DNA of 64,000 nt, from contig JAHAYO010000009.1 in assembly GCA_018384595.1 (NCBI GenBank), positions 11,233 through 75,232 of the forward strand, in the 5' to 3' direction. Positions 50,357 to 62,905 of this stretch are shown one piece after another. The notes under the pieces are model-generated. The model had not been told where the DNA came from. It saw nothing but the letters and a program-made list of their open reading frames with translations, and searched no databases. Position numbers and translations under genes: made by a program. The stretch comes from Thiopseudomonas sp. Lineage in GTDB: Bacteria; Pseudomonadota; Gammaproteobacteria; Pseudomonadales; Pseudomonadaceae. Each line of letters begins with the position of its first letter. Positions within the stretch are counted from its first letter, which is position 1.

Positions 50357-51955
50357 TTAGTGGGTTTTGAAGTGTGCCAATAGGCTGTTGAGCTGCTGCA
50401 TGTTTTCGCGGATCTCGCGGCTTACCGATACCGTTGCCTCGGCATCTTCGCTGGTCTGGCGGGCAATGTTCATGATGTTCACCACCGAGGCATCCATCTC
50501 CGCCGCTACATGACTCTGCTGCTCGGCGGCGGTAGCAATCTGGCTGCTCATATCGGTGATGCGACTTGCCGAGGTCACGATATGATCCAGCACCGAATCG
50601 GCCGCCGCCGTGCTGTCTACCGTTTCGCGGGCTTGATTGCGGCTCTGCTCCATCATCTCGGTCGAACGCAATGCCTGATTCTGCAGACGCTCCACAATTA
50701 CGCGGATTTCTTCGGTGGACGTTTGCGTGCGCTGTGCCAGCGTGCGCACTTCGTCAGCCACCACCGCAAAGCCACGGCCTTGCTCGCCAGCCCGCGCCGC
50801 CTCAATCGCCGCGTTCAGCGCCAGCAGGTTGGTTTGCTCGGCAATGCCACGGATAACCTGCATCACCTGCCCCACTTCATGGCTGTCTTCCTGCAGCTGC
50901 TGCATATCGCGCGCGCCCTGCTCCACCTGCTCCGCCAGCCGCGTAATGCTGGCAATGGTGTGGGTCACCACTGAACGGCCACTTTCGGCCTGACCACGGG
51001 CCTGACCGGCCAGCTCGTCGGTCAGTGCGGTATTCTTTGCCACTTCCTGCACGGTCGCCGCCATTTCGTTCATCGCGGTGGCCATCTGGTCCAGTTCCAT
51101 GTGCTGCGTCTGCACGCCACGGCTGGTCTGCTCCAGATGTTCCACGACAGTCGCCACCGCCTGCGTCACCTGTGCAGTGGCCTGACCCACCCTGCCAATC
51201 AACTGCCCTACCTGCTCCGTCATCTCGTTGTAAGCGGCATACATCTGGCCTATCTCGTTATCGGCCACATCAATCTGCAAACGGTCGGAAAAATCACCCT
51301 GCGCCACCCGCAGCAACGACTCGCGCAGCTGCTGAATTTTCATCATCAGCACCGTCATGCCGAACATCCGCCCCAGCGTCACCAGCAGCAAAATACTCAC
51401 CGTTGAACCAAAAGCCACCAGCAACTGCTTCTTGCCCTCGGCCTGCGCCACCGACTCCATCATCATCACCGCTGCGTTCATCTCCTTGAGCACCACCTGC
51501 GACTGACCATGAATGGCCGTCAGACTGTCGGTACTGCCTGTGTCCAGATACGCCATGATCGCCGCACGGTAGGCGATCCACAGCTGCTCTACCTGCTCCA
51601 GCTGTCGACGGATTTCCGGCACTGTCACCCGCTCGATACCCCGCTCTTTGTTGCCCTGCAGCAGCGACTTGTGCGCCGCCTCGAACACCGCCATGGTGCC
51701 CAACACCGTCTCACGCTTCTCCAGCCCCTGAGCGGTCAGCAACGCCTCCTTGGCAGTTTTCTGACTCAACATGCGCTGCGCGCCCGCCACGTTGATGCTG
51801 GTGGCATCATTGCTGAACGACAGCAGCAAATGCCCCGCCACCACTACCGTAAAAAATCCGATCAGGCAGTACGACAACAAAAACTGTTTGTCCACACTAC
51901 GCACACCCAGACCACGCAAGGTAGCCTGAATCACACCTGCAATAAACGCTCTCAC
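50357..51955 (-). CDS. MCP with PilJ/NarX-like sensor domain (McpN-like); GTG start likely, alternative ATG at 51988
   Basis: [13 protein letters not shown] box, HAMP, MCP signalling core. Confidence 0.9.
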
Positions 51956-52243
51956 GCTCCATCCCTCCCCATCACGGGCCTGCTTCAATCATCCACCCTA
52001 CCCGGCACCGACACACTATCGCCCGCGTATGCTGGCATTATGCTCCATCACCGACAGAAAAGCCCTACACAGATCATTTTTTTGGCATACCGCCAAAAAA
52101 CTACGAAACTGCACCGGCGACAAGCAAAGCAAAGCAAAAAATACGCCAACCCTTGCGCATCCCAAAAAAACCGGCATGCTGCAGACGGCCGCCTTTCCCA
52201 CTAGAATGCCCACATCCGTAACTGTTGCCATAAGGACTTGTTA

Positions 52244-52732
52244 ATGACCCGCAAACTGCTCACCGCCGAAGGCTACGACCGCCTCAAGGCCGAGCTCGGC
52301 TACCTGCTGCGCGAACACCGTCCCGAAATCACCGCCATTGTCAGTTGGGCCGCCAGTCTCGGCGATCGCTCGGAGAACGCCGACTATCAATTTAACAAGA
52401 GAAAACTGCGCGAAATCGACCGCCGCATCCGCCACCTCACCAAACTGTTCGACGTAGCCGAGCGCATCGAATACAACCCCGTCCAACAAGGCAAAGTCTA
52501 CTTTGGTGCGTGGTGCGAGCTAGAAAACGACAACGGCGACAGCCTGCGTTTTCGCATTGTCGGCGACGAAGAAGTCTACGGTGCTAAGGACCATATCTCG
52601 CTCAAATCCCCCATGGCTCGCGCCTGCCTCGGCAAAAGCCTCGACGACGAGGTGGTGGTGCACACCCCCGAAGGCGAAAAGCACTGGTATATCACTGGTA
52701 TTACCTACCAAGCCCCTGCTAGCGCCGAATAA
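52244..52732 (+). CDS. greB: Transcription elongation factor GreB
   Basis: WAASLGDRSENADY, REIDRRIR, ISLKSPMARA. Confidence 0.95.
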   Translation: MTRKLLTAEGYDRLKAELGYLLREHRPEITAIVSWAASLGDRSENADYQFNKRKLREIDRRIRHLTKLFDVAERIEYNPVQQGKVYFGAWCELENDNGDSLRFRIVGDEEVYGAKDHISLKSPMARACLGKSLDDEVVVHTPEGEKHWYITGITYQAPASAE

Positions 52733-52929
52733 GTCGGCGTTTTCAGTCGCTGCCTGTCCAACGCGTACCGGCCACTGCTTTACTGTAAAGTCACGCCCTA
52801 CAACGGCATACCGTACGCATCGAAACATAGTTGCGCACCGCCCATAGCTCTTTTCAGCACCCGCGCACAATGGACCTACAAGGCATCTGCCTGATCTCAG
52901 TATCTGACGTAGATCTTAAAAGGATACCC

Positions 52930-54666
52930 ATGAACTGCGAAGCACAATTCAAACAGCAACTTGAGCAACTGCAACAGTTTGTCACCGATGAAAAGGCCGC
53001 CACCCTGCAGCAGCTAGAGTCAGTATGGCTGAAAAACCTCGATGCCAAACTAACCACCGGCCAGACTCAGGCCATCAGCGGTCTGCAGCAGATAGACAAA
53101 CATAGCATCCGTGCGCAGCTGGGCGATAACGAGTCCAGATACCGAGAGGGCGATATTGTGAGGCTCTATCTGGATGATCCGTTGACCGGAACCAGCCTGA
53201 CCCAGCTACGTATTGAGACGGTGCACGAAGACGAATGGCTGCTCAGGGCGCATCAACTCAACACCGACAGTTTCCGAGAGCTAAAAGACGGCTGCTTCGC
53301 TGACCCCTGCTTTATCGACTTGGAAGGGTTGTATCAAAAAGCGCTGAGCGAAGTCGCCGCAATGCACATAGGTCGCTCCATCATCCTGCCGCTACTGGCT
53401 GGACAGCTGGAAAACAACTTGGTGGATGAGGATCTGTACGATGAAGCCATGCTCCGTCTGGAAGAAGACGAATTTAATGACCCACAGCGTGACGCCATTG
53501 CACTGGGTGTAGCCGCCGAATATCTAGTCTGTATTCAGGGACCACCGGGTACCGGTAAAACCCGCGTCATTGCCAAAATAGCGCAACTTTTGACGGAAAA
53601 AGGCGAGCGCATTCTGCTGACCTCCCACACCCACATGGCTATCAACAACGCGCTGAATAAGATCAAACCGCTTGTTGTAAACACAGTGAAAGTCGGCAGT
53701 CTAGACAGTTGTAGCGCCCTCAATTCCGACATTGAACGCTTCACCCATGGCGAAAACTGGAAAAACATGCCCGATAATGGCTATGTAATTGGCGCTACAC
53801 CCTTTGCCACCTGCACCCAGCGCTTAGAAGACTACAGCTTTGATACGGTCATCTTTGACGAGGCGAGTCAAATCACCTTGCCGCTGGCCATTATGGCCAT
53901 GCGTAAAGGCACCCGTTTTATCTTTGTGGGCGACCATAAACAGCTGCCGCCTGTGGTTTTATCCAACTCCATTCTGGACAGGAGCCACTCGGCGTTCTCC
54001 GCCCTGATTAACAACAACAATGAACTGTCCGTCATGCTGGATGAAACCTATCGCATGAACCAGTGGCTGACCGCCTGGCCATCGCGCACTTATTACCAGC
54101 ATGCGCTCAAGGCCAGCGGCCCCAACCAGGCACGCCGTTTTCCGCTGAGTCCACCACCCGGTTTTGCCAGCCAAATACTCAACCCCGAACACTCGCTGGT
54201 TTACATACCTTCGCCCGGCACCGACGCCAAAAACAAAAACGAACAGGAAGCTCAGCTGGTCGAACGCATCATTCTTGCCGCCCTCGCTGCTGGACTGGAT
54301 TGTAGCGACATAGGTGTAGTGGTGCCTTTTCGACTGCATGGTAAAAACATCAGGCAAAAGCTGCACAAGCATGCGATCGGGCCCATAGTGGTCGATACGG
54401 TTGAGCGGATGCAGGGGCAGGAAATGGAGCTGGTCATTCTGTCGCTGTGCAGCACCGCTGCAACCTATTTACAGGCACTGGCCGATTTTATGTTTGCGCC
54501 CGAACGCATCAACGTTTCTATCACGCGCGCCAAGTCCAAGCTCATCATTATTGGTCCTGAGCTGGATCTGAACGATTTTGCATCAGCCAGTCCCCATACT
54601 CGGCGCTTAATCCAACACTATCAGTCCCTCATTACCAGCGCTAAGCGTCAGGAATGGATACCCTAA
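52930..54666 (+). CDS. Upf1/Dna2-like superfamily 1B helicase
   Basis: QGPPGTGKT, FDEASQ, VGDHKQLPP, YRMN, TVERMQGQE, RINVSITRAK. Confidence 0.9.
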   Translation: MNCEAQFKQQLEQLQQFVTDEKAATLQQLESVWLKNLDAKLTTGQTQAISGLQQIDKHSIRAQLGDNESRYREGDIVRLYLDDPLTGTSLTQLRIETVHEDEWLLRAHQLNTDSFRELKDGCFADPCFIDLEGLYQKALSEVAAMHIGRSIILPLLAGQLENNLVDEDLYDEAMLRLEEDEFNDPQRDAIALGVAAEYLVCIQGPPGTGKTRVIAKIAQLLTEKGERILLTSHTHMAINNALNKIKPLVVNTVKVGSLDSCSALNSDIERFTHGENWKNMPDNGYVIGATPFATCTQRLEDYSFDTVIFDEASQITLPLAIMAMRKGTRFIFVGDHKQLPPVVLSNSILDRSHSAFSALINNNNELSVMLDETYRMNQWLTAWPSRTYYQHALKASGPNQARRFPLSPPPGFASQILNPEHSLVYIPSPGTDAKNKNEQEAQLVERIILAALAAGLDCSDIGVVVPFRLHGKNIRQKLHKHAIGPIVVDTVERMQGQEMELVILSLCSTAATYLQALADFMFAPERINVSITRAKSKLIIIGPELDLNDFASASPHTRRLIQHYQSLITSAKRQEWIP

Positions 54667-54668
54667 CC

Positions 54669-56594
54669 ATGGCAAAACTCGATTCACTGCACACCCTGCA
54701 CAGAACGGTTCGCAGCAAAGTTAAAAAGCTACTTTCTGCGTTGTCCGACCATTACATCGTTCGCGACCAAATGATCGACAACGAACGGCTGTCGCCCTTG
54801 CTGATTGAGGGGCCACACAACAGCTGGGCCTTTTGTGGATACGCCCAACACGCGCTACCTCCAGACATCCTGAACAAACTGGATAGCTACAACAAGGGCC
54901 GCGAAGAGCGGGGTTACTCACCGATTAAATACCTGCTGATTAGCGCACAGGAACAGGACTTGTTCTCGCCATCTACGGCCTGCCCTCACCTGATCACCTT
55001 GGCTTTGGACAGCAGCCCCGAGGTAGCTGCCGCACGCATTAAAGATGCGCTGACCGCCCTGCCTGATGAGCAGCACGACAATTTCAAAAGCCAGTTTGTC
55101 AAAGAGTCCATCGTCATCACCAGGCGGAAAACCCGACGCTTTACCGACAGCCGCAGCAACGATGCCTGTCTGGGCAACTTTTTTCTGGACTATGACCAAG
55201 AGCGCGCCACCAAAATGGGTCTGCTGCACGCAGCGGAGGATAGCCCATCAGACAAGGATGATTATTCAGTCAACCTGATCAATGGCGTAGCCGGCAGCGG
55301 CAAAACGCTTATCCTGATCAACAGAGCGCTGCTCTATCAAAAAAAGAACCCTGATAAAAAAACCATCATCCTGATCCACAATAAGCCCATTGTTAGCTGG
55401 GTTCGCAGCATCATCAGACAGCATAGCCGCGATATTGCAGTCGAAACCTTTCATGCTTTTGCCAAACAACAAGCAGAGCGTGCGCTGGCGACAAAAATCA
55501 ACCCGCTGTTCAAACTCTATGCCAGCCATATCCCCAACCTGGCCGAGCAAATCAAGCTGGATAAGGACAAGATCGCCGAAGAAATCGAATATATAAACGA
55601 CTATCTGATTAGCAGCGAAGAAGCCTATCTGGAGTACGAGCGCCAGGGACGCGGTTTTTCGCTGCAGAAAAACCAGCGCAGCCTGATCTGGCAACTCTAC
55701 GAAAACATAACTGCCGCACTAAAAACCAACAACACTGCTGGGCAGCCGCACCTGGCCAGTCTGTACATTCGCGACCTGTGCCTGCTGGACAGTCCCGAAA
55801 ACCTGCGCAAATATGATCACATCATGATTGATGAAGCTCAGTTTTTTGCGCCATCTTGGCTGCAACTGGCGAAAAAATCACTCCAGGCCAACGGCAAAAT
55901 TTTTATGTGTGCCGACCCCAACCAAGGTTTTTTAAAACACCGCCTCAGCTGGCGTAGCGTCGGCCTAAATGTGCAGGGCCGTACTCGAAAACTGCAACAG
56001 CCCTATCGCTCGACCTATCAAATCATGGCTGCCGCCAACCGGCTGATTTCTTTGATTCAGGAAGAGGATGAAGACTATGTAAAGCCAGAGTTTCGATCCA
56101 TTCCCCACGGCCCGAAACCCAAGGTCATTTATACCGCCAGTCAAGCCGACGAGAACACTCGTTTTCTCAATGAGCTGAACAATCTAATCCACCAGAACAG
56201 CATCCCTCTAGAGCAGATCGTGGTATTGACCAGCGGCTACGCCGACAACATCCAGCAGTTAATCGAACAACGTATCGGTCAAGGCATTAGCTTGGATATC
56301 AACAACTACACACAGCAGCGTGCTGATCAATCCAACAAAATCAGGGTAATGAGTATCAACAGTTGCACCGGCATTGAAGCCTCCATTGTGCTGGTGCTGG
56401 GTGCCGGAAAACTCATCGCCGCCTATAACGACATCCGGCTCAGCGCAGAAGAAAAGCAGCAGACCATGCATGAGTCCATTCGCAAACTCTATGTATCCAT
56501 GACCCGTGCCGCACAACACTTGGTCATATTCAGTACCGAGCCACTGCCCTCCATTCTGGGTGAAGCCATTGAAAGTAGCGGCCGGACTGCATAA
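54669..56594 (+). CDS. UvrD/Rep-like superfamily 1A helicase with an uncharacterised N-terminal domain (alternative start 54654)
   Basis: GVAGSGKT, IDEAQFF, ADPNQ, YRST, GIEA, LYVSMTRA. Confidence 0.88.
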   Translation: MAKLDSLHTLHRTVRSKVKKLLSALSDHYIVRDQMIDNERLSPLLIEGPHNSWAFCGYAQHALPPDILNKLDSYNKGREERGYSPIKYLLISAQEQDLFSPSTACPHLITLALDSSPEVAAARIKDALTALPDEQHDNFKSQFVKESIVITRRKTRRFTDSRSNDACLGNFFLDYDQERATKMGLLHAAEDSPSDKDDYSVNLINGVAGSGKTLILINRALLYQKKNPDKKTIILIHNKPIVSWVRSIIRQHSRDIAVETFHAFAKQQAERALATKINPLFKLYASHIPNLAEQIKLDKDKIAEEIEYINDYLISSEEAYLEYERQGRGFSLQKNQRSLIWQLYENITAALKTNNTAGQPHLASLYIRDLCLLDSPENLRKYDHIMIDEAQFFAPSWLQLAKKSLQANGKIFMCADPNQGFLKHRLSWRSVGLNVQGRTRKLQQPYRSTYQIMAAANRLISLIQEEDEDYVKPEFRSIPHGPKPKVIYTASQADENTRFLNELNNLIHQNSIPLEQIVVLTSGYADNIQQLIEQRIGQGISLDINNYTQQRADQSNKIRVMSINSCTGIEASIVLVLGAGKLIAAYNDIRLSAEEKQQTMHESIRKLYVSMTRAAQHLVIFSTEPLPSILGEAIESSGRTA

Positions 56595-56647
56595 CAGCCT
56601 GCCTGCATCTGTTTAAGGGCTTCCGCTTGATCCTGCAATCTGGTCTG

Positions 56648-56710
56648 TCATATATCGGTTTCACACAGCGCCGCCGGTGTGATGTGTTTCAGGTCGTGGA
56701 AGTTTTTCAT
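56648..56710 (-). pseudogene. Possible tyrosine-integrase remnant
   Basis: Short frame MKNFHDLKH... resembles the catalytic H-x-x-R(K) box (HDLKH/HDLRH); lies just 3' of the tRNA. Confidence 0.4.
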
Positions 56711-56751
56711 GGCAGTCACCTTTAGCAGTTAAGAGGGTGCCAAGCGAAATT

Positions 56752-56772
56752 GGTACACGAATCGGTACACGA
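56752..56772. repeat. Two 9-bp direct repeats (att arm-site-like)
   Basis: GGTACACGA at 56752 and 56764. Confidence 0.6.
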
Positions 56773-56786
56773 CACTTTGAGGAAAT

Positions 56787-56822
56787 AAAAAAGCCCCTAA
56801 GTATCAGGTACTTAGAGGCTTT
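56787..56822 (-). terminator. Hairpin/terminator directly 3' of tRNA-Leu
   Basis: AAAGCCTCTAAGTA-CCTGA-TACTTAGGGGCTTTTTT on the minus strand. Confidence 0.75.
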
Positions 56823-56825
56823 ATA

Positions 56826-56912
56826 TGGTGCCCGGAACCGGAATCGAACCGGTACGAAGTTGCCTTCGAGGGATTTTAAGTCCCTTGCGTCTACCTATTC
56901 CGCCATCCGGGC
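56826..56912 (-). tRNA. tRNA-Leu (anticodon TAA)
   Basis: GCCCGGATGGCGGAATAGGTAGACGC...AGGGA-CTTAAAA-TCCCT, long variable arm, GGTTCGATTCC, encoded CCA; 87 nt. Confidence 0.97.
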
Positions 56913-56954
56913 TGAATGACAAGACCTAGCCAAGCTGGCTCAGGCAGGTGCGAG

Positions 56955-56983
56955 AATATATAGGGTTTACCGATCAAGTTCAA
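56955..56983 (-). promoter_or_regulatory. Sigma-70 promoter of tRNA-Leu
   Basis: TTGAAC-N17-TATATT followed by a GC-rich discriminator. Confidence 0.65.
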
Positions 56984-57000
56984 CTGCTGGGCGGGCTTTG

Positions 57001-57450
57001 TCAGCAGCGAAAAATCAGATGGTTCTCCCACTCTTCCTCTGCGACCTCGGTTTCACTCAGCATGCGCCCAAGCTGGGATATGCCAGCGGCATGCACAGCG
57101 TTTTCGTCGCCGCACACCAGCGGGTGCCAAGGCCCCAGCGGTTTGCCTTCGGCCAGCATGCGGTAAGCGCAGGTTTGCGGCAGCCACTGATAAGAACGAA
57201 TGTCGCCGGGTTTGAGCTGGATGCAGTCCGGCACAAATTTTTGTCGCTCGGGGTAATTGCTGCAGCGGGCGGTGCCCAAATCCAGCAATTTACAGGCAAT
57301 GCGGGTGTAATAAATGCTATCGGCATCCTCGGCGTCGGCCAGTTTTTGCAGGCAGCACAGGCCGCAGCCGTCACAGAGCGATTCCCACTCTTCCTGATTC
57401 ATCTGTTCCAGTGTTTTGCTTTGCCAGAACGGCTTAACGATGGCGGCCAT
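57001..57450 (-). CDS. YcgN-family cysteine cluster protein
   Basis: [28 protein letters not shown]. Confidence 0.92.
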
Positions 57451-57452
57451 GC

Positions 57453-57776
57453 TTATTTACCACTCGCCTTGCACTGCACACTGACGCGCATACGAATAAC
57501 CTCATGGTTAAAGCCGGCGGTTACGTGGCTTTTCTGGCCGGCCGCCAACCGTGCATTGCGCCTAACCGGCACTCCAGGGCCACTGCGAAAACGCACGCTG
57601 CACTGCGCGCTCCGAGCCCCCTGGTTGTACAACACCACAGCAGCGGTATTGTCGCCCAGATCCAACGGCTCCACCGTCACGGCCACATCTTGCATTTTTT
57701 CTTCCACTTCAAAAGGAAAAGCCCAGCTTTGGCTGCAGGCCAAAACTGCGCTCAGTATCAATATTTTTGGGTACAT
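57453..57776 (-). CDS. Small exported hypothetical protein
   Basis: Signal peptide ending SWA-FP, single Cys pair; 107 aa. Confidence 0.7.
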
Positions 57777-57886
57777 GGACAGGTTTCGCTTGAATACAAC
57801 AAGCGCACAGTTTAACGCAAACGAAGCGCTATCGGGCAGCCACCCGGCTTGCCGTTGCGCACAGGCGTCGCTGCTCGTAGCAAGTA

Positions 57887-58783
57887 TTACTGCAGATCAA
57901 GCTTTTCTTCTTCCTGCTCAGGCGTGAGTGCAAAGCGCTCATCGTGACGTTCAAGCTGAATGGTGACGCGACGGTTGGCAGCCTTGTTGGCGCTGCTGGT
58001 ATTGGGTTTGGCAGGATAACGCTCGCCATGAAAGCGCACGATGATGGCTTCGTCGGCTATCCCTTTGTTTGTTAGATAGTTTTTCACCACCAAGGCACGC
58101 CGGCGCGACAGGTCACGATTAATCAGGCGGTCGCCACTGTTATCCGAGTGGCCGTCCAAGCGGATGCGGTTGACGGTTTTGTCCTCGGCCATGTAGTCCA
58201 GCAGGATATCCAGATGGGCCATAGCACGCTCGTTTAGCTCATAGCCGTCGTCAAAGCGCACCATGGTGAATTTGGCTTGATCAAAATTAATCGGTAGCAG
58301 CTTGGCTGTACAGTCGAGATAACTCTGATAAGCCTCCAGCACATTGACCGGATGCAGGCGGATTTCTAAGGGCTCCCCCTGCACCGTTTTGTGCCGAACC
58401 ACCGGCGCACGCCCCTCCAAAACACCGCTCAACAGGCGTCCGGCCTGCTTCTGATCGGACTCGGCGCTACGCTCGTTGCCGGCCACCGGCATGCGGCCCA
58501 GCAACAGGTCGCTTTCGCCGCCACGCCAAGTCGCAGCCGCGGCATACAGCATAGCATTGCCACGCGCCAGCCAAGCCTCGCGCGTTACGATGCGGAATAC
58601 CGGCTTTTCGCCTGCCCTGCGTACAAACATGCCATAACCAAAACGCGGCACGGGCTGACTGAGGCGGCACTCGAAACGGTCGCCTTCAACCTCCCATGTC
58701 ACGTCTTCAATTCGCTCCTGAAACGTCAGCGCATGTACCAGCACCGGCACCGCCAGAACTCCCAGCCAGAAAAAACGGCGCAT
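57887..58783 (-). CDS. motY: Flagellar stator-associated MotY (OmpA-like C-terminus)
   Basis: WEVEGDRFECRLSQ, GHSDNSG, NRDLSRRRA, NRRVTI. Confidence 0.85.
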   Translation of the reverse strand: MRRFFWLGVLAVPVLVHALTFQERIEDVTWEVEGDRFECRLSQPVPRFGYGMFVRRAGEKPVFRIVTREAWLARGNAMLYAAAATWRGGESDLLLGRMPVAGNERSAESDQKQAGRLLSGVLEGRAPVVRHKTVQGEPLEIRLHPVNVLEAYQSYLDCTAKLLPINFDQAKFTMVRFDDGYELNERAMAHLDILLDYMAEDKTVNRIRLDGHSDNSGDRLINRDLSRRRALVVKNYLTNKGIADEAIIVRFHGERYPAKPNTSSANKAANRRVTIQLERHDERFALTPEQEEEKLDLQ

Positions 58784-58912
58784 AACACTACTCCCGACAA
58801 AAATTTGGCATTTCAAGGCCCACCTTGAGGTATCCGCAGGCCGATACATGATAAGTACGGCATTTTACGGTAAGATCCGGCGTTTATATTCACCACAGAA
58901 CTACGGGACCAC

Positions 58913-59962
58913 ATGATGACCGAACGCCTGACCATTTTACGCCCCGACGACTGGCACATTCACCTGCGTGACGGTGCTGTCCTGTCGCATACCGTCGCCG
59001 ATGCGTCACGCATGTTTTCCCGTGCAATTATCATGCCGAACCTCGTGCCACCCGCACGCAATGTCGAAGAAGCCGGCCAGTACCGCGAGCGTATCTTGGC
59101 TGCCGTGCCAGCCGGACGCAGCTTCGAGCCGCTGATGACCCTGTACCTGACTGACCAGACCACTCCAGACATCATTCGCACCGCCAAAGCCAGCGGCTTT
59201 GTGCACGCGGCCAAACTGTATCCAGCCGGTGCCACCACCAACTCCGATTCAGGCGTGACCGCGCTGGAGCATATTTTTCCGGCACTGGAAACCATGGCCG
59301 AGGTGGGCATGCCGCTGCTGGTGCATGGCGAGGTAACCCACGCTGAGGTCGATATTTTTGACCGTGAAAAACGTTTTATCGACGAACAGCTCGCTGCGCT
59401 GGTGCAGCGCTTCCCCACCTTGAAGGTGGTGATGGAGCACATTACCACCGCCGATGCAGTGCAGTTTGTCGAGTCGGCCCGTGCCGGCGTGGCGGCAACC
59501 ATCACCCCACATCACCTGCTGTTTAACCGCAACCACATGCTGGTCGGCGGCATCAAGCCACACTTTTATTGCCTGCCCATCCTCAAGCGCAACACACACC
59601 AGCACGCCCTGCTGCAGGCTGCCACCCGTGGTAACCCTAAGTTTTTCCTCGGTACCGACTCGGCCCCGCATGCACAGCACACCAAAGAAGCGGCCTGTGG
59701 CTGCGCTGGCTGCTACAGTGCTTTTGCCGCCATCGAACTGTACGCCATGGCCTTTGAGCAAGAAGGCGCACTGGACAAACTGGAAGCCTTTGCCAGCCAT
59801 TTCGGTGCTGACTTCTACGGCCTACCGCGTAATACCGAAACCGTAACCCTAGCCCGCGAAAGCTGGCAAGTGCCGGCACAACTGCCCTTTGGCGACACCC
59901 ATGTGGTGCCGCTTTGCGCCGGCGACACCCTGACCTGGCGTCTGCAGGAGCAGCCAGCATGA
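58913..59962 (+). CDS. pyrC: Dihydroorotase
   Basis: [31 protein letters not shown]. Confidence 0.97.
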
Positions 59963-60639
59963 GTCAGGATTACGACGACTTTGACGAACAGGAAGACGCA
60001 CCCCAAAGCGGAAAAAACAAGCCTAAATCACCGCTCGCGCAGCGTTTTCGCGGCTATTTGCCGGTGGTGGTGGATGTGGAAACCGGCGGCTTTAACAATG
60101 CCACCGACGCTCTGCTGGAGATTGCGGCCGTGATTCCTGGCATGGACGACCGTGGCCTGCTGTATGCCGAGCACACACAGTTTTTCCGCGTGGAGCCCTT
60201 TGAAGGTGCCAATATCGAACCGGCCGCGCTGGAATTTACCGGCATCAAGCTCAATCACCCGCTACGCATGGCGGTGAGCGAAGAGCACGCGCTGGGCGAA
60301 ATTTTCAAGAGCATACGCAAGTCAATGAAAAGCCATGGCTGCAAACGCGCCATCTTGGTCGGCCATAACAGCCCCTTTGACCTGGGCTTTGTGCAAGCGG
60401 CCGCCGCTCGCTGCGCGCTCAAGCGCAACCCCTTCCATCCATTTTCCAGCTTTGATACCGCCACTCTGGCCGGCCTTGCCTACGGCCAAACGGTATTGGC
60501 CAAGGCCTGCGAAGCAGCCGGTATTGAGTTTGATAACCGCGAGGCACACAGCGCCCGCTACGATACCGAAAAAACCGCCGAGCTGTTTTTTGAGATCGTG
60601 AACCGCTGGAAATCAATGGGCGGCTGGAACGACTACTAA
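59959..60639 (+). CDS. rnt: Ribonuclease T
   Basis: [25 protein letters not shown]. Confidence 0.96.
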
Positions 60640-60659
60640 CCCCTGCCGTTAAACGCGCG

Positions 60660-60689
60660 TGTCACGGGCTGGTAAGCAGGCCCGTGACA
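60660..60689. terminator. Inverted repeat between convergent rnt and rlmKL
   Basis: TGTCACGGGC...GCCCGTGACA. Confidence 0.65.
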
Positions 60690-60697
60690 GTCAAGCG

Positions 60698-62905
60698 TTA
60701 CTCGTCAACAGAGTGCCGAATCCGCCATGCACGGTGGATTTTTTGATTGCGGGCAAAGTCCTGGTCGATGGTCTGGGCGCTGATTTCTTCGATGGCGTAC
60801 AGTTCTGCCAGCTCTGGTTCCAGCTCGAACTTGCGGAAGTTGTTGGAGAAATACAGCGTGCCGTCTTTGGCCAGCAGGCGCATGGCCTCGTTGATCAACG
60901 TGCGCTGGTCACGCTGCACATCAAACACATCCTGCATGCGCTTGGAGTTGGAGAAGGTCGGCGGGTCGATGAAAATCAGGTCGTATTCGCCCTGCTCTTT
61001 GGCCAGCCACTGCATGACATCGGCCTGCACCAGCTGGTTCTTGTCGGAAAAACCATTGAGTGACAGGTTGCGCCGTGCCCAGTCGAGGTAGGTTTTTGAC
61101 AAATCGACGCTAGTAGTGGTGCGCGCACCACCGGCAGCAGCATGCACGGTGGCGACACCGGTGTAGCAGAACAGGTTGAGAAAACGCTTGCCCTGGGCTT
61201 CATTAGCGATGCGCAGACGCATGGGGCGGTGATCCAGAAACAGGCCGGTATCCAGATAATCGGTCAGGTTGACCAGCAGCTTGACGCTGCCTTCCCGCAC
61301 TTCAAGAAACTCGCCCTTGCTGGCTTGGCGCTCGTATTGGTTAAGGCCGCTCTGGCGCTCGCGGCGCTTGATCACCACCTTGTCGGTCGGTACGTCCAGC
61401 GCTGACGGAATCGCTGCCAGCACATCCAACAGGCGAGATTGCGCCTTGTCCGCATCCACCGACTTAGGTGCGGCATATTCCTGCACATGCACCCAATCGC
61501 CATACATATCAATGGCCACCGCGTATTCAGGCATATCGGCGTCGTACAGGCGATAACACTGAATTTCATTCTGACGCAGCCATTTAGCCAGCTGTTTGCG
61601 GTTTTTTTGCAGACGATTGGCGAACATCTGCGCCCCATTGGACAGCATCGCCGGCGCTTCAGCTTTGGCGGTTACACGATCTGATTGCTGAGATGCCGCG
61701 CCCTGCTCCGGCTCGCGTGCGGTGACAAAGCTTTGCTCCCGCACATCAAACATCAGCAGCTTGCAGGGGATTGCGCCATTAAAAAACGCGTACTGTTTTT
61801 GGCTACGGATGCCCATGCGCTTGCACAGTTGCGGTGCACCGGTGAATACGCCGGCCTGCCAGCCTTGTAGCTGACCGCGCATACGCTCACCCAGATGCTG
61901 ATAAAGGTACAGCAGGCTGGCTTCGTCACCCAGCCGCTCGCCATAGGGCGGGTTACAGATCATCAAACCGGGCTGGCCGTGATCCGGGCTGGGCGCATAG
62001 GTGGCCAGCTCGCCTTGGTACACCTTGACCCAGTCGGCAAGGCCGGCGCGGGCAATGTTGTTGCGCGCCGGCTGCATCAGACGCGGGTCGGCTTCGTAGC
62101 CGCGAATCCACAGCGGTTCTTGCTGCAGGCCTATTTCGGCGCGCTGCTCGGCCTCCTCCAGCAAGCGGCTCCAAATGGATGGAACATGACCTTGCCAGCC
62201 CTGAAAGCCCCAGTACTCACGGCGCAAGCCTGGGGCCACATCAGCGGCCATCAGCGCACCTTCAATCAAAAAAGTACCCATGCCACACATCGGGTCACTC
62301 AGCGCATAGCCTTGTTTGGCCAATGCCGGCCAGTTAGCGCGCAACAAAATAGCGGCAGCAAGGTTTTCTTTCAAAGGTGCCGCACCCTGCTGCAAGCGGT
62401 AACCACGCTGGTGCAGGCTGGTGCCGGAAAAATCCAGCGCCACAGTGATTTCATCACGGCGCAAATGGACGTTGACGCGCAGGTCTGGATTACGCTTTTC
62501 CACCGACGGGCGATTGCCGAGACGGTCACGCAGCGCATCAACAATCGCATCCTTAACCTTGAGTGCACCAAAATGACTGTTGTCGATGGTCTTGCTGGTG
62601 CCGGAAAAATCGATCGCCAATGTGCTTTTGCTGTCCAGATGGTCGCGCCAGTCGATGCTTTGAATGGCGGCATACAGCTCGTCGGCGTTGCGCACCGGAA
62701 AGCGGCCGATCACCAGCAACACGCGGTTGGCCAAGCGTGACCACAGACACAGGCGGTAGGCAGTTTCCAACGTGCCCTGCCCACTGACCAGCGCCGGACG
62801 CTGACGCGCCTGTTCCAGCCCTAGGTCTTGCGCCTCGGTCAGCAGCAGCTCTTCTAGGCTTTTTGGGCAACTGAGGTGTATTTCTAGCAAATTCTCTATG
62901 GTCAT
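60698..62905 (-). CDS. rlmKL: Bifunctional 23S rRNA methyltransferase RlmKL
   Basis: THUMP domain, LHQRGYR, NPPYGERL, DTGLFLDHR, IDPPTFSNSK. Confidence 0.96.
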   Translation of the reverse strand: MTIENLLEIHLSCPKSLEELLLTEAQDLGLEQARQRPALVSGQGTLETAYRLCLWSRLANRVLLVIGRFPVRNADELYAAIQSIDWRDHLDSKSTLAIDFSGTSKTIDNSHFGALKVKDAIVDALRDRLGNRPSVEKRNPDLRVNVHLRRDEITVALDFSGTSLHQRGYRLQQGAAPLKENLAAAILLRANWPALAKQGYALSDPMCGMGTFLIEGALMAADVAPGLRREYWGFQGWQGHVPSIWSRLLEEAEQRAEIGLQQEPLWIRGYEADPRLMQPARNNIARAGLADWVKVYQGELATYAPSPDHGQPGLMICNPPYGERLGDEASLLYLYQHLGERMRGQLQGWQAGVFTGAPQLCKRMGIRSQKQYAFFNGAIPCKLLMFDVREQSFVTAREPEQGAASQQSDRVTAKAEAPAMLSNGAQMFANRLQKNRKQLAKWLRQNEIQCYRLYDADMPEYAVAIDMYGDWVHVQEYAAPKSVDADKAQSRLLDVLAAIPSALDVPTDKVVIKRRERQSGLNQYERQASKGEFLEVREGSVKLLVNLTDYLDTGLFLDHRPMRLRIANEAQGKRFLNLFCYTGVATVHAAAGGARTTTSVDLSKTYLDWARRNLSLNGFSDKNQLVQADVMQWLAKEQGEYDLIFIDPPTFSNSKRMQDVFDVQRDQRTLINEAMRLLAKDGTLYFSNNFRKFELEPELAELYAIEEISAQTIDQDFARNQKIHRAWRIRHSVDE

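What the first reader, a model, noticed from the sequence alone, without database searches (positions are those of the whole stretch)
52930..56825. Coupled SF1B + SF1A helicase pair in a tRNA-Leu-anchored cargo slot: candidate undescribed anti-phage module
Seen in the sequence: two co-oriented genes with the first stop 2 nt before the second ATG (or overlapping via 54654). Both carry full helicase motif sets, Upf1/Dna2-like then UvrD-like. Each has an N-terminal region of about 170-200 aa that I cannot assign. They sit between greB and the 3' end of tRNA-Leu, look more AT-rich in places than the flanks (by eye), and abut an integrase-like fragment. Established: tRNA 3' ends are integration hotspots whose cargo is often defensive, and SF1 helicases occur in Gabija (GajB), Nhi and Mokosh. 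Inference: a helicase-helicase pair with no visible TOPRIM, PLD or HEPN partner matches none of these as I know them. It could be a new two-component defence system, with a cryptic nuclease (e.g. degenerate NERD/PD-(D/E)xK) in one N-terminus.
Basis: partly seen in the sequence, partly recalled or inferred. Interest (0 to 1): 0.75.

Follow-up and report, generated by a model that had tools for sequence, protein, structure and literature searches.

The report
Mobile two-helicase cassette, candidate defence module
Two tightly coupled helicase genes sit as a foreign 4-kb insert next to a tRNA gene; the same pair travels as a unit through many bacteria, often beside anti-phage genes, so it is a credible but untested and unnamed immune module that has no working nuclease of its own.

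Summary
Gene A (52930-54666, 578 aa) is a Upf1/Dna2-type SF1B helicase. Gene B (54669-56594, 641 aa) is a UvrD-type SF1A helicase that starts 2 nt after A's stop. They lie between greB and the 3' end of tRNA-Leu(UAA), in DNA of 50-55% GC against 58-64% in the flanks.

Both N-termini can now be assigned. A's is the standard Upf1-family stalk plus beta-barrel (best fold match IGHMBP2). B's has a restriction-endonuclease-like fold, but the catalytic D...(D/E)xK residues are not conserved, so the "cryptic nuclease" idea is not supported.

The pair is a conserved unit. B follows A in 27 of 28 non-redundant loci, from Gamma- and Betaproteobacteria to Chloroflexota. The genes co-evolve (r = 0.91) and are under purifying selection (dN/dS about 0.1). 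The pair was not detected in 23 of 24 related genomes searched. About 11 of 28 loci sit directly beside RM, Gabija-like, GmrSD, reverse-transcriptase or toxin genes; the rest are isolated islets among housekeeping genes.

No model in PADLOC 2.0, NCBIfam 20 or Pfam, and no paper found, names this system. Best reading: a mobile, unnamed helicase-helicase module, probably acting against phages or plasmids. Function and mechanism are untested.

The parts
52238..52732 (+). greB, the left flank (core gene, not part of the cassette)
   Evidence: It matches GreA_GreB_N and GreA_GreB. Homology with relatives G003, G006 and G008 ends inside or at the end of greB, at window 52690-52708.
52733..52929 (.). 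Left junction and leader. The island boundary lies somewhere in this stretch; the RBS AAGGA sits 8 nt upstream of A's ATG.
   Evidence: The sequence is shown. Homology to the closest cassette variants (L125, L123) starts at 52920. No repeat of the tRNA 3' end is present here.
52930..53472 (+). Gene A, N-terminal 181 aa: Upf1-family stalk (1C) plus beta-barrel (1B) accessory domain
   Evidence: The AlphaFold2 model has pLDDT 94.6. The top Foldseek match is IGHMBP2 (4b3f): 180 aligned columns, probability 1.00, TMq 0.58. Sen1, Upf1 and Dna2 follow. The motif NESRFREGD is conserved.
53473..54666 (+). Gene A, SF1B helicase core (Walker A GPPGTGKT; DEASQ; GDHKQLPPV; TYRM; VERMQGQE; NVSITRA)
   Evidence: It matches AAA_11 and AAA_12. 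The best PDB sequence match is the Dna2 helicase domain at E 5.7e-54, then Upf1, Sen1 and IGHMBP2. The motifs are invariant in alignment A1.
54669..55178 (+). Gene B, N-terminal 170 aa: restriction-endonuclease-like (alpha-beta-beta-beta-alpha-beta) domain without a conserved catalytic triad, carrying a basic helix (RRHFKK in the family consensus)
   Evidence: The AlphaFold2 model has pLDDT 85.4. Foldseek top matches are weak (best E 8e-3, TMq 0.43); nucleases dominate the top of the list: Bax1, Can2, R.BspD6I, NucS/EndoMS, DdmD and Cap4. The D and K positions are not conserved. hhalign against a true NERD protein gives probability 0.2. The domain occurs only at the N-terminus of B-type proteins: 106 clusters among 1.84 billion representatives.
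55179..56594 (+). Gene B, SF1A UvrD-like helicase core (Q motif FFLDYDQE; Walker A GVAGSGKT; DEAQF; CADPNQGF; YRST; SCTGIE; YVSMTRA)
   Evidence: It matches UvrD-helicase and UvrD_C. PDB sequence matches are PcrA, UvrD and Rep. The motifs are invariant in alignment A2.
56595..56825 (.). Spacer between B and the tRNA. It holds a 20-codon minus-strand ORF with an FHDLKH motif (56648-56710), the direct repeat GGTACACGA at 56752-56760 and 56764-56772, and the tRNA's own terminator hairpin (56790-56822, minus strand).
   Evidence: The spacer is 99.1% identical to the sister-species contig, whereas flanking core genes are 83-88% identical.
56826..56912 (-). tRNA-Leu(UAA), the right anchor of the insert
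   Evidence: ARAGORN finds it. Homology with G003 and G008 stops exactly at window 56825, the 3' end of the tRNA.

Best explanation
The two genes form one horizontally mobile, self-contained cassette. It encodes a pair of SF1 motors of opposite families: a Upf1/Dna2-type SF1B helicase (A) and a UvrD-type SF1A helicase (B) whose N-terminus is a catalytically degenerate, nuclease-fold nucleic-acid-binding domain.

Shown here: the pairing, the conserved translational coupling, co-evolution, purifying selection, intact ATPase motifs in both proteins, foreign base composition, no detection in 23 of 24 related genomes searched, and frequent (though not universal) residence among defence genes.

Inferred: the two proteins work as a complex against foreign nucleic acid (phage or plasmid). 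The most likely form is a two-motor machine whose subunits track opposite strands of a DNA end or fork, as RecB and RecD do in RecBCD or Sgs1 and Dna2 do in end resection. Because it has no nuclease of its own, it would act by unwinding DNA or stripping proteins, by handing single strands to host nucleases, or by aborting replication or transcription of the invader.
For: The pair is conserved in 27 of 28 non-redundant loci. The gap between A's stop and B's start is -26 to +13 nt, with one exception of 66 nt. The distance matrices of A and B correlate at r = 0.91, with 0 of 2000 Mantel permutations reaching that value. dN/dS is 0.10-0.11 for both genes. Helicase motifs are invariant.

The GC dip is seen. 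A is absent from 9 same-genus and 15 same-family genomes, and from 400 sampled genomes of the class. In the sister-species contig the cassette is 99.7% identical while flanking core genes are 83-88% identical. In the landfill sample X4, a co-occurring relative covers the flanks but not the cassette.

Defence neighbours occur in several loci. Vibrio anguillarum has BrxR, Mrr and type I RM. V. coralliilyticus has a Gabija-like pair and an AAA+HNH pair. V. parahaemolyticus has an integrase-VapE-HNH element with an Abi gene. Hahella has GmrSD and type IIG RM plus toxins. Other loci carry RT, Fic and ParE, type I RM (L002) or a type IV REase (L003) directly adjacent, and type IIG RM in L001.

Nuclease-fold-plus-UvrD helicases are recurrent partners in defence systems, according to bioRxiv 10.64898/2026.09.30.754977.
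Against: There is no experimental evidence of any kind. No effector (nuclease, protease, NADase or membrane protein) is present. About 60% of loci have only housekeeping neighbours, for example Variovorax, Zooshikella, L120 and most of the Beta/Chloroflexota loci. Three Massilia species keep the pair in one chromosomal context, which also fits a genome-maintenance role. Complex formation and opposite polarities are inferred from family membership only. The enrichment beside defence genes was not tested against a background.
Confidence: 0.5

Rival explanations
1. The pair is an accessory genome-maintenance machine, not an immune system. It would be a nuclease-less RecBCD/AdnAB-like or Sgs1-Dna2-like two-motor helicase used for end processing, fork restart, or R-loop and protein-roadblock removal in the host's own DNA.
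For: Many loci lie among housekeeping genes. Three Massilia species share one context. The closest solved relatives are Dna2, IGHMBP2, UvrD and PcrA. There is no toxic effector. Another scan finding read a Dna2/Upf1 helicase pair as a maintenance module (e1-890970).
Against: The distribution is very patchy: 0 of 400 class genomes, and not detected in 23 of 24 close relatives searched. The composition is foreign. Transfer between species appears recent. The pair occurs on plasmids and an integrase-VapE element. It repeatedly lies directly next to RM, GmrSD or Gabija-like genes.
Confidence: 0.25
2. The pair serves the mobile element that carries it, for example replication, transfer or maintenance of a satellite, island or plasmid, rather than the host.
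For: It lies in an integrase-HTH-VapE-HNH element in V. parahaemolyticus and on large Vibrio plasmids. It sits next to a tRNA 3' end here.
Against: In most loci the conserved unit is just the two ORFs, with no replication, integration or transfer genes. Homology between variants starts 10 nt before A and ends inside B. No family members were found on IMG/VR viral contigs or in phage records. Contexts differ from locus to locus.
Confidence: 0.1
3. The pair is directed at RNA or transcription. A would act like Sen1, Upf1 or IGHMBP2 on RNA or RNA:DNA hybrids, and B like UvrD or HelD on RNA polymerase. Together they would dislodge transcription complexes or R-loops, either of invaders or of the host.
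For: A's N-terminal domain matches IGHMBP2, Sen1 and Upf1 best. B has weak matches to helicase IV and HelD. The scan found a HelD-like plus Upf1-like cassette elsewhere (e1-2691255).
Against: A's helicase core is closest by sequence to the DNA motor of Dna2. B lacks the HelD coiled-coil N-terminus; its N-terminus has a nuclease fold. Nothing here discriminates RNA from DNA substrates.
Confidence: 0.1

Closest known systems
RecBCD / AdnAB / AddAB two-motor helicase-nucleases, and eukaryotic Sgs1(BLM)-Dna2
   Same: They combine an SF1A (UvrD-like, 3'-5') motor with an SF1B (RecD- or Dna2-like, 5'-3') motor encoded together. A nuclease-fold domain is attached to the SF1A subunit.
   Different: No active nuclease is present here. 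The nuclease-fold domain is N-terminal and degenerate. There is no RecC-like subunit. NCBIfam recB, recD and addA scores are far below cut-off. The SF1B partner is Upf1/Dna2-type with a stalk and barrel, not RecD-type. The distribution is patchy and mobile rather than core.
Mokosh (MkoA helicase + MkoB PLD nuclease; MkoC fusion)
   Same: A is the same kind of Upf1-like SF1 helicase. The best PADLOC hit is MkoA at E 2e-50.
   Different: Only the C-terminal helicase part of the MkoA profile is matched (774-1075 of 1112 positions). A is half the size of MkoA. No PLD nuclease is present. The partner is a second helicase.
Gabija (GajA OLD/TOPRIM nuclease + GajB UvrD-like helicase)
   Same: It is a two-gene module that contains a UvrD-like SF1A helicase.
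   Different: There is no GajA, ABC-ATPase or TOPRIM gene. B matches GajB profiles only weakly and partially (E 1e-10 at best).
NERD-UvrD helicases of defence islands (Gao 2020 candidate C3a187; DRT-associated NERD-helicase; partner of Tiamat type I-G)
   Same: The architecture is a nuclease-fold N-terminus plus a UvrD-like helicase that works with a neighbouring partner. The best PADLOC hit for B is C3a187 at E 9e-28. Background comes from bioRxiv 10.64898/2026.09.30.754977.
   Different: Only the helicase half of the C3a187 profile is matched. B's N-terminus is not NERD by sequence (hhalign probability 0.2) and lacks the catalytic residues. The partner is an SF1B helicase, not an RT, a viperin or Tiamat.
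IGHMBP2 / Upf1 / Sen1 / Dna2 (eukaryotic Upf1-like SF1B helicases)
   Same: A shares the full domain plan: stalk, beta-barrel, RecA1 and RecA2.
   Different: A is a bacterial, mobile protein with no nuclease, CH, R3H or zinc-finger accessory domains. It is obligately paired with an SF1A helicase.

Membership tests
Gabija | An adjacent GajA gene (OLD-family ABC ATPase + TOPRIM nuclease) | tested here: not met
   Only two genes lie between greB and tRNA-Leu. Neither has an ABC-ATPase or TOPRIM match.
Gabija | A full-length GajB-type UvrD helicase | tested here: not met
   The best GajB profile hits are E 1.6e-10 to 3e-10 and partial.
Mokosh | A PLD-family nuclease, either MkoB or fused as in MkoC | tested here: not met
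   Neither protein has a PLD match, and the cassette has no third gene.
Mokosh | A full-length MkoA-type helicase (about 1100-1600 aa with its N-terminal region) | tested here: not met
   A is 578 aa. Only positions 774-1075 of the 1112-position MkoA profile are matched.
Nhi | A single protein with an N-terminal nuclease plus an SF1 helicase, matching the Nhi profile | tested here: not met
   Nhi profile hits are E 1.2e-6 for A and 1.5e-8 for B, over short stretches only.
NERD-UvrD (PADLOC C3a187 candidate) | An N-terminal NERD domain (Pfam PF08378) | tested here: not met
   B has no Pfam NERD hit. The C3a187 match covers profile positions 319-541 only. hhalign of the B N-terminal profile against a true NERD protein gives probability 0.2. 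Only the fold resembles PD-(D/E)xK nucleases.
PD-(D/E)xK nuclease (active) | A conserved catalytic D...(D/E)xK constellation | tested here: not met
   Among 130 family members, the D position is P in 58 and D in 35. The K position is G in 93 and K in 3. The window's protein has neither residue.
RecBCD/AddAB/AdnAB helicase-nuclease | SF1A and SF1B motors encoded together | tested here: met
   
RecBCD/AddAB/AdnAB helicase-nuclease | An active RecB-type nuclease domain, and membership by curated model | tested here: not met
   NCBIfam recB scores 23.7 bits against a cut-off of 696, recD 44.8 against 310, and addA 29.8 against 861. No active nuclease is present.
Upf1-like SF1B helicases (structural class) | AAA_11/AAA_12 core plus an N-terminal stalk and beta-barrel (1C/1B) | tested here: met
   
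tRNA-anchored genomic island | Lies at the 3' end of a tRNA gene, has deviant composition, and is absent from relatives | tested here: met
   
tRNA-anchored genomic island | An integrase gene and a direct repeat of the tRNA 3' end at the far boundary | tested here: not met
   Only a 20-codon ORF with an FHDLKH motif is present. No repeat of the tRNA end lies near greB.
Anti-phage defence system (generic) | Enrichment in defence islands | tested here: inconclusive
   About 11 of 28 non-redundant loci have known defence genes next to or within 10 kb of the pair. No background rate was computed.
Anti-phage defence system (generic) | Protection against phage on expression | not testable with these tools
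   This needs an experiment.

The most novel reading that the evidence does not exclude
The cassette is the first member of a nuclease-free class of immunity. In this reading a heterodimer of opposite-polarity SF1 motors (Upf1/Dna2-type plus UvrD-type) recognises ends or forks of invading DNA through the degenerate nuclease-fold domain. It then disables the invader purely by unwinding or stripping. It would act as a RecBCD-like surrogate that phage RecBCD inhibitors cannot block, leaving degradation to host exonucleases.
Probability: 0.2. Interest if true: 0.8.

Novelty: new variant of a known kind. Interest (0 to 1): 0.55.

Why it matters
If the pair protects against phages or plasmids, it would add a system built only from two helicases. 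That would challenge the usual sensor-plus-nuclease logic and offer a compact model for how opposite-polarity motors cooperate outside RecBCD. It is small (3.7 kb), self-contained and present in culturable Vibrio, Hahella, Xenorhabdus and Massilia strains, so the test is easy. If it turns out to be a repair module instead, it would be a mobile, nuclease-less analogue of Sgs1-Dna2 in bacteria.

Tried and rejected
1. Named systems. PADLOC 2.0, NCBIfam 20 and Pfam give core-only hits below cut-off. ARMADA II, which came up in the literature search, is a four-gene DISARM-like system and is unrelated.

2. Literature. Eight searches found no description. They included protein accession numbers and terms such as SF1B, UvrD, Dna2, Upf1-like and NERD.

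3. Cryptic nuclease in A. Rejected: the N-terminus is the Upf1-family stalk and barrel.

4. Active NERD nuclease in B. Rejected.

5. Empty greB-tRNA-Leu site in relatives. Such a site does not exist as stated. In G003, greB, tRNA-Leu and motY lie on three different contigs, and tRNA-Leu is followed by RND efflux genes. Only the break of homology at the tRNA 3' end could be shown.

6. A conserved third gene. A 140-153 aa gene follows B in the closest variants only (L123-L125). It occurs nowhere else and is not in the window.

7. Phage or viral carriage. None was found.

8. Class-level census. 0 of 400 genomes had A, so no co-occurrence statistics could be drawn from that sample.

9. Exception to pairing. 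L009 carries A without B downstream. This was not pursued.
Full report
**1. Observation**

The window holds two co-oriented ORFs between greB (52238-52732) and tRNA-Leu(UAA) (56826-56912, minus strand).

- Gene A starts at the ATG at 52930, preceded by the RBS AAGGA. Homologues and nucleotide homology both begin there. It ends with TAA at 54664-54666.
- Gene B starts at the ATG at 54669, 2 nt later. The identical database cluster is 641 aa, and the 'MA..' N-terminus is conserved.
- GC is 0.50-0.55 over the pair. It is 0.58-0.64 upstream and 0.56-0.60 downstream.

**2. What the proteins are**

Gene A (578 aa) matches AAA_11 and AAA_12. By sequence its core is closest to the helicase domain of Dna2 (E 5.7e-54), then Upf1, Sen1 and IGHMBP2. 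Its first 181 residues were modelled with a 32-sequence alignment at pLDDT 94.6. They give a long helix, a six-stranded barrel and further helices. The best fold match is IGHMBP2 over all 180 columns (probability 1.00, TMq 0.58), followed by Sen1, Upf1 and Dna2. This is therefore the ordinary stalk-and-barrel accessory domain of Upf1-like helicases, not a hidden nuclease.

Gene B (641 aa) matches UvrD-helicase and UvrD_C and PcrA, UvrD and Rep in the PDB. Its first 170 residues model at pLDDT 85.4 as alpha-beta-beta-beta-alpha-beta-beta-alpha. The fold matches are weak (best E 8e-3, TMq 0.43); PD-(D/E)xK nucleases dominate the top of the list: Bax1, Can2, R.BspD6I, NucS/EndoMS, DdmD and Cap4.

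The catalytic positions of that fold are not kept:
- Gammaproteobacterial members read aPxxIEGPxxSWxxxG.
- Betaproteobacterial members read PDFFxxHxxxGWLAIAV.
- Chloroflexota members read PDFLI....LLLKVS.
- Among 130 members, the D position is D in 35 and the K position is K in 3.

A profile of this domain does not match a genuine NERD protein (hhalign probability 0.2). In an exhaustive search of 1.84 billion representatives, the domain appears only at the N-terminus of B-type proteins of about 640-700 aa or their fragments (106 clusters). A conserved basic helix (consensus RRHFKK) suggests nucleic-acid binding; that is inference. All ATPase and helicase motifs of both proteins are invariant across their families.

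**3. The pair is a unit**

- In loci found through A, B follows directly wherever the contig allows: 14 of 15 in genome contigs and every locus fetched by identity.
- Three loci chosen through distant B homologues all have A directly upstream.
- The total is 27 of 28 non-redundant loci. L009 is the exception.
- The gap from A's stop to B's start is -26 to +13 nt, with one case of 66 nt.
- The hosts span Gamma- and Betaproteobacteria and Chloroflexota.
- The pairwise distances of A and B correlate at r = 0.91, with 0 of 2000 Mantel permutations reaching that value.
- Against the 81%-identical variant L125, dN/dS is 0.10 for A and 0.11 for B.

**4. Accessory and mobile**

A was not detected in the 9 other species of the genus, in 15 other genera of the family, or in 400 sampled genomes of the class. 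The sister species G002 carries the 3' part of B at a contig edge, as described below.

Homology of G003 and G008 to the window stops exactly at the 3' end of the tRNA. In G003 the tRNA is followed by RND efflux genes, and greB lies elsewhere. The predicted 'empty greB-tRNA site' therefore does not exist as such.

One sister species (G002) has a contig that starts inside B and runs through the tRNA into the core genes. Identity by segment is:
- B: 99.7%
- spacer: 99.1%
- tRNA: 100%
- the five flanking segments, core genes plus their spacers: 83-88%

That pattern means either recent transfer to the same site or a chimeric contig joined at the identical tRNA. I could not decide between these.

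Near-identical copies occur in at least 20 metagenome runs from pig and rabbit gut, manure, landfill, compost and wastewater. In four of them the cassette has the same depth as its flanks and is joined to greB. No contig skips the cassette. In run X4 a co-occurring relative covers the flanks but not the cassette.

No att duplicate was found. The 'integrase fragment' is a 20-codon ORF that cannot be verified. No family member lies on viral contigs or in phage records. Four Vibrio plasmids carry the pair.

**5. Neighbourhoods**

Loci with defence or conflict genes next to the pair:
- Vibrio anguillarum: BrxR plus unknown genes, Mrr, type I RM and IS elements.
- V. coralliilyticus plasmid: a Gabija-like endonuclease and helicase, and an AAA+HNH pair.
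- V. parahaemolyticus: an integrase-HTH-VapE-HNH element with an Abi gene.
- Marinobacterium: NERD, a Schlafen-type helicase and a resolvase.
- Hahella: SNF2, type IIG RM, GmrSD, SymE, Zeta, YafO and a transposase.
- One large contig: a 1226-aa RT, Fic, ParE and Tse2.
- L121: a Gp49/HTH pair, an SMC-type ATPase with a phosphoesterase, and KilA-N.
- L002: a complete type I RM ending 30 nt before A. L003: a GmrSD-type REase just after B. L013: a PADLOC candidate protein.
- L001: type IIG RM.

Loci with plain housekeeping neighbours include Variovorax, Zooshikella, L120, L123 and most Massilia and Chloroflexota loci. Xenorhabdus has housekeeping genes beside the pair, with an integrase, an RHS/deaminase toxin and SymE 6-10 kb away. 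Three Massilia species share one context. The association with defence genes is clear but not universal, and I did not compute a background rate.

**6. Comparison with known systems**

PADLOC 2.0 gives MkoA for A (E 2e-50, helicase part only) and the candidate 'NERD+UvrD' C3a187 for B (E 9e-28, helicase part only). GajB, Nhi, Hhe and DpdJ hits are weak or partial. In NCBIfam 20 every hit is far below its curated cut-off, including IGHMBP2-family, PLuB, ProA, recB, recD, uvrD and helicase IV.

There is no TOPRIM, PLD, HEPN or other effector domain. Eight full-text searches found no paper that describes the pair. ARMADA II is unrelated. A 2026 preprint documents NERD-helicases as recurrent partners of other defence proteins.

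The scan's own notes list the same architecture in another genome (581-aa SF1B plus 673-aa NERD-like/UvrD-like, e1-3165028, not followed up) and a HelD-like plus Upf1-like cassette (e1-2691255). These are leads, not evidence.

**7. Mechanism**

Shown: two intact motors of the SF1B and SF1A families, obligately co-encoded and co-evolving; a degenerate nuclease-fold domain on B; no effector.

Inferred: they form a complex that engages opposite strands of a DNA end or fork, as RecB and RecD or Sgs1 and Dna2 do. The B N-terminal domain would serve as the nucleic-acid-binding or strand-separating element. The outcome would be unwinding or stripping, not cutting.

Whether the target is foreign DNA (my preferred reading, about 0.5), the host's own DNA (about 0.25), the carrier element (about 0.1), or RNA and transcription complexes (about 0.1) cannot be decided with these tools.

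**8. Verdict**

The feature is real and conserved. It is an unnamed helicase-helicase cassette on a small foreign insert. The 'new defence system' reading is plausible but unproven, and the 'cryptic nuclease' detail is not supported. I class it as a new variant of a known kind (helicase-based conflict modules). Interest is 0.55.

Noticed in passing
window 55074-62889 vs L113 (G002 contig C22): The cassette, spacer and tRNA are 99-100% identical between two species whose flanking core genes are only 83-88% identical. The switch falls at the tRNA. This means either recent inter-species transfer to the same tRNA-Leu site or a chimeric MAG contig joined at the identical tRNA.
   Followed up: partly
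L125:3943-4404, L123:9348-9770, L124:7323-7745: The closest variants of the cassette carry a third small gene (140-153 aa, 60% identical to each other, no Pfam family) right after B. It is missing from the window and from all other loci.
   Followed up: partly
window 50357-51988 (-): The PilJ/HAMP methyl-accepting chemotaxis gene is absent in relatives G006 and G008, where the usp and eamA genes abut greB directly. It is therefore a second insertion, next to the cassette.
   Followed up: partly
window 56998-57927 (+): This 309-aa ORF next to the tRNA has no Pfam family. Its DNA is conserved at about 75% identity in the same-genus genome G003, beside motY.
   Followed up: no
window 56752-56772 and 56790-56822: The direct repeat GGTACACGA occurs twice with a 12-nt period. 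A 14-bp hairpin with a T-run directly after the tRNA is most simply the tRNA's own terminator, not an att scar.
   Followed up: partly
L081:7237-9673 (Vibrio anguillarum): A BrxR-type regulator is followed by a 677-aa protein with no family and a 136-aa Schlafen-helicase fragment. IS elements interrupt it in some strains. It is a separate, possibly decaying, uncharacterised defence candidate upstream of the helicase pair.
   Followed up: no
L005, L007, L008 (Massilia spp.): Three Massilia species keep the pair in the same chromosomal neighbourhood. In that genus the cassette seems to be inherited vertically.
   Followed up: no
L009:9956-11755: This is the one A-family gene without a B gene downstream; the next genes are on the opposite strand. 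It is the only exception to the pairing among 28 loci.
   Followed up: no
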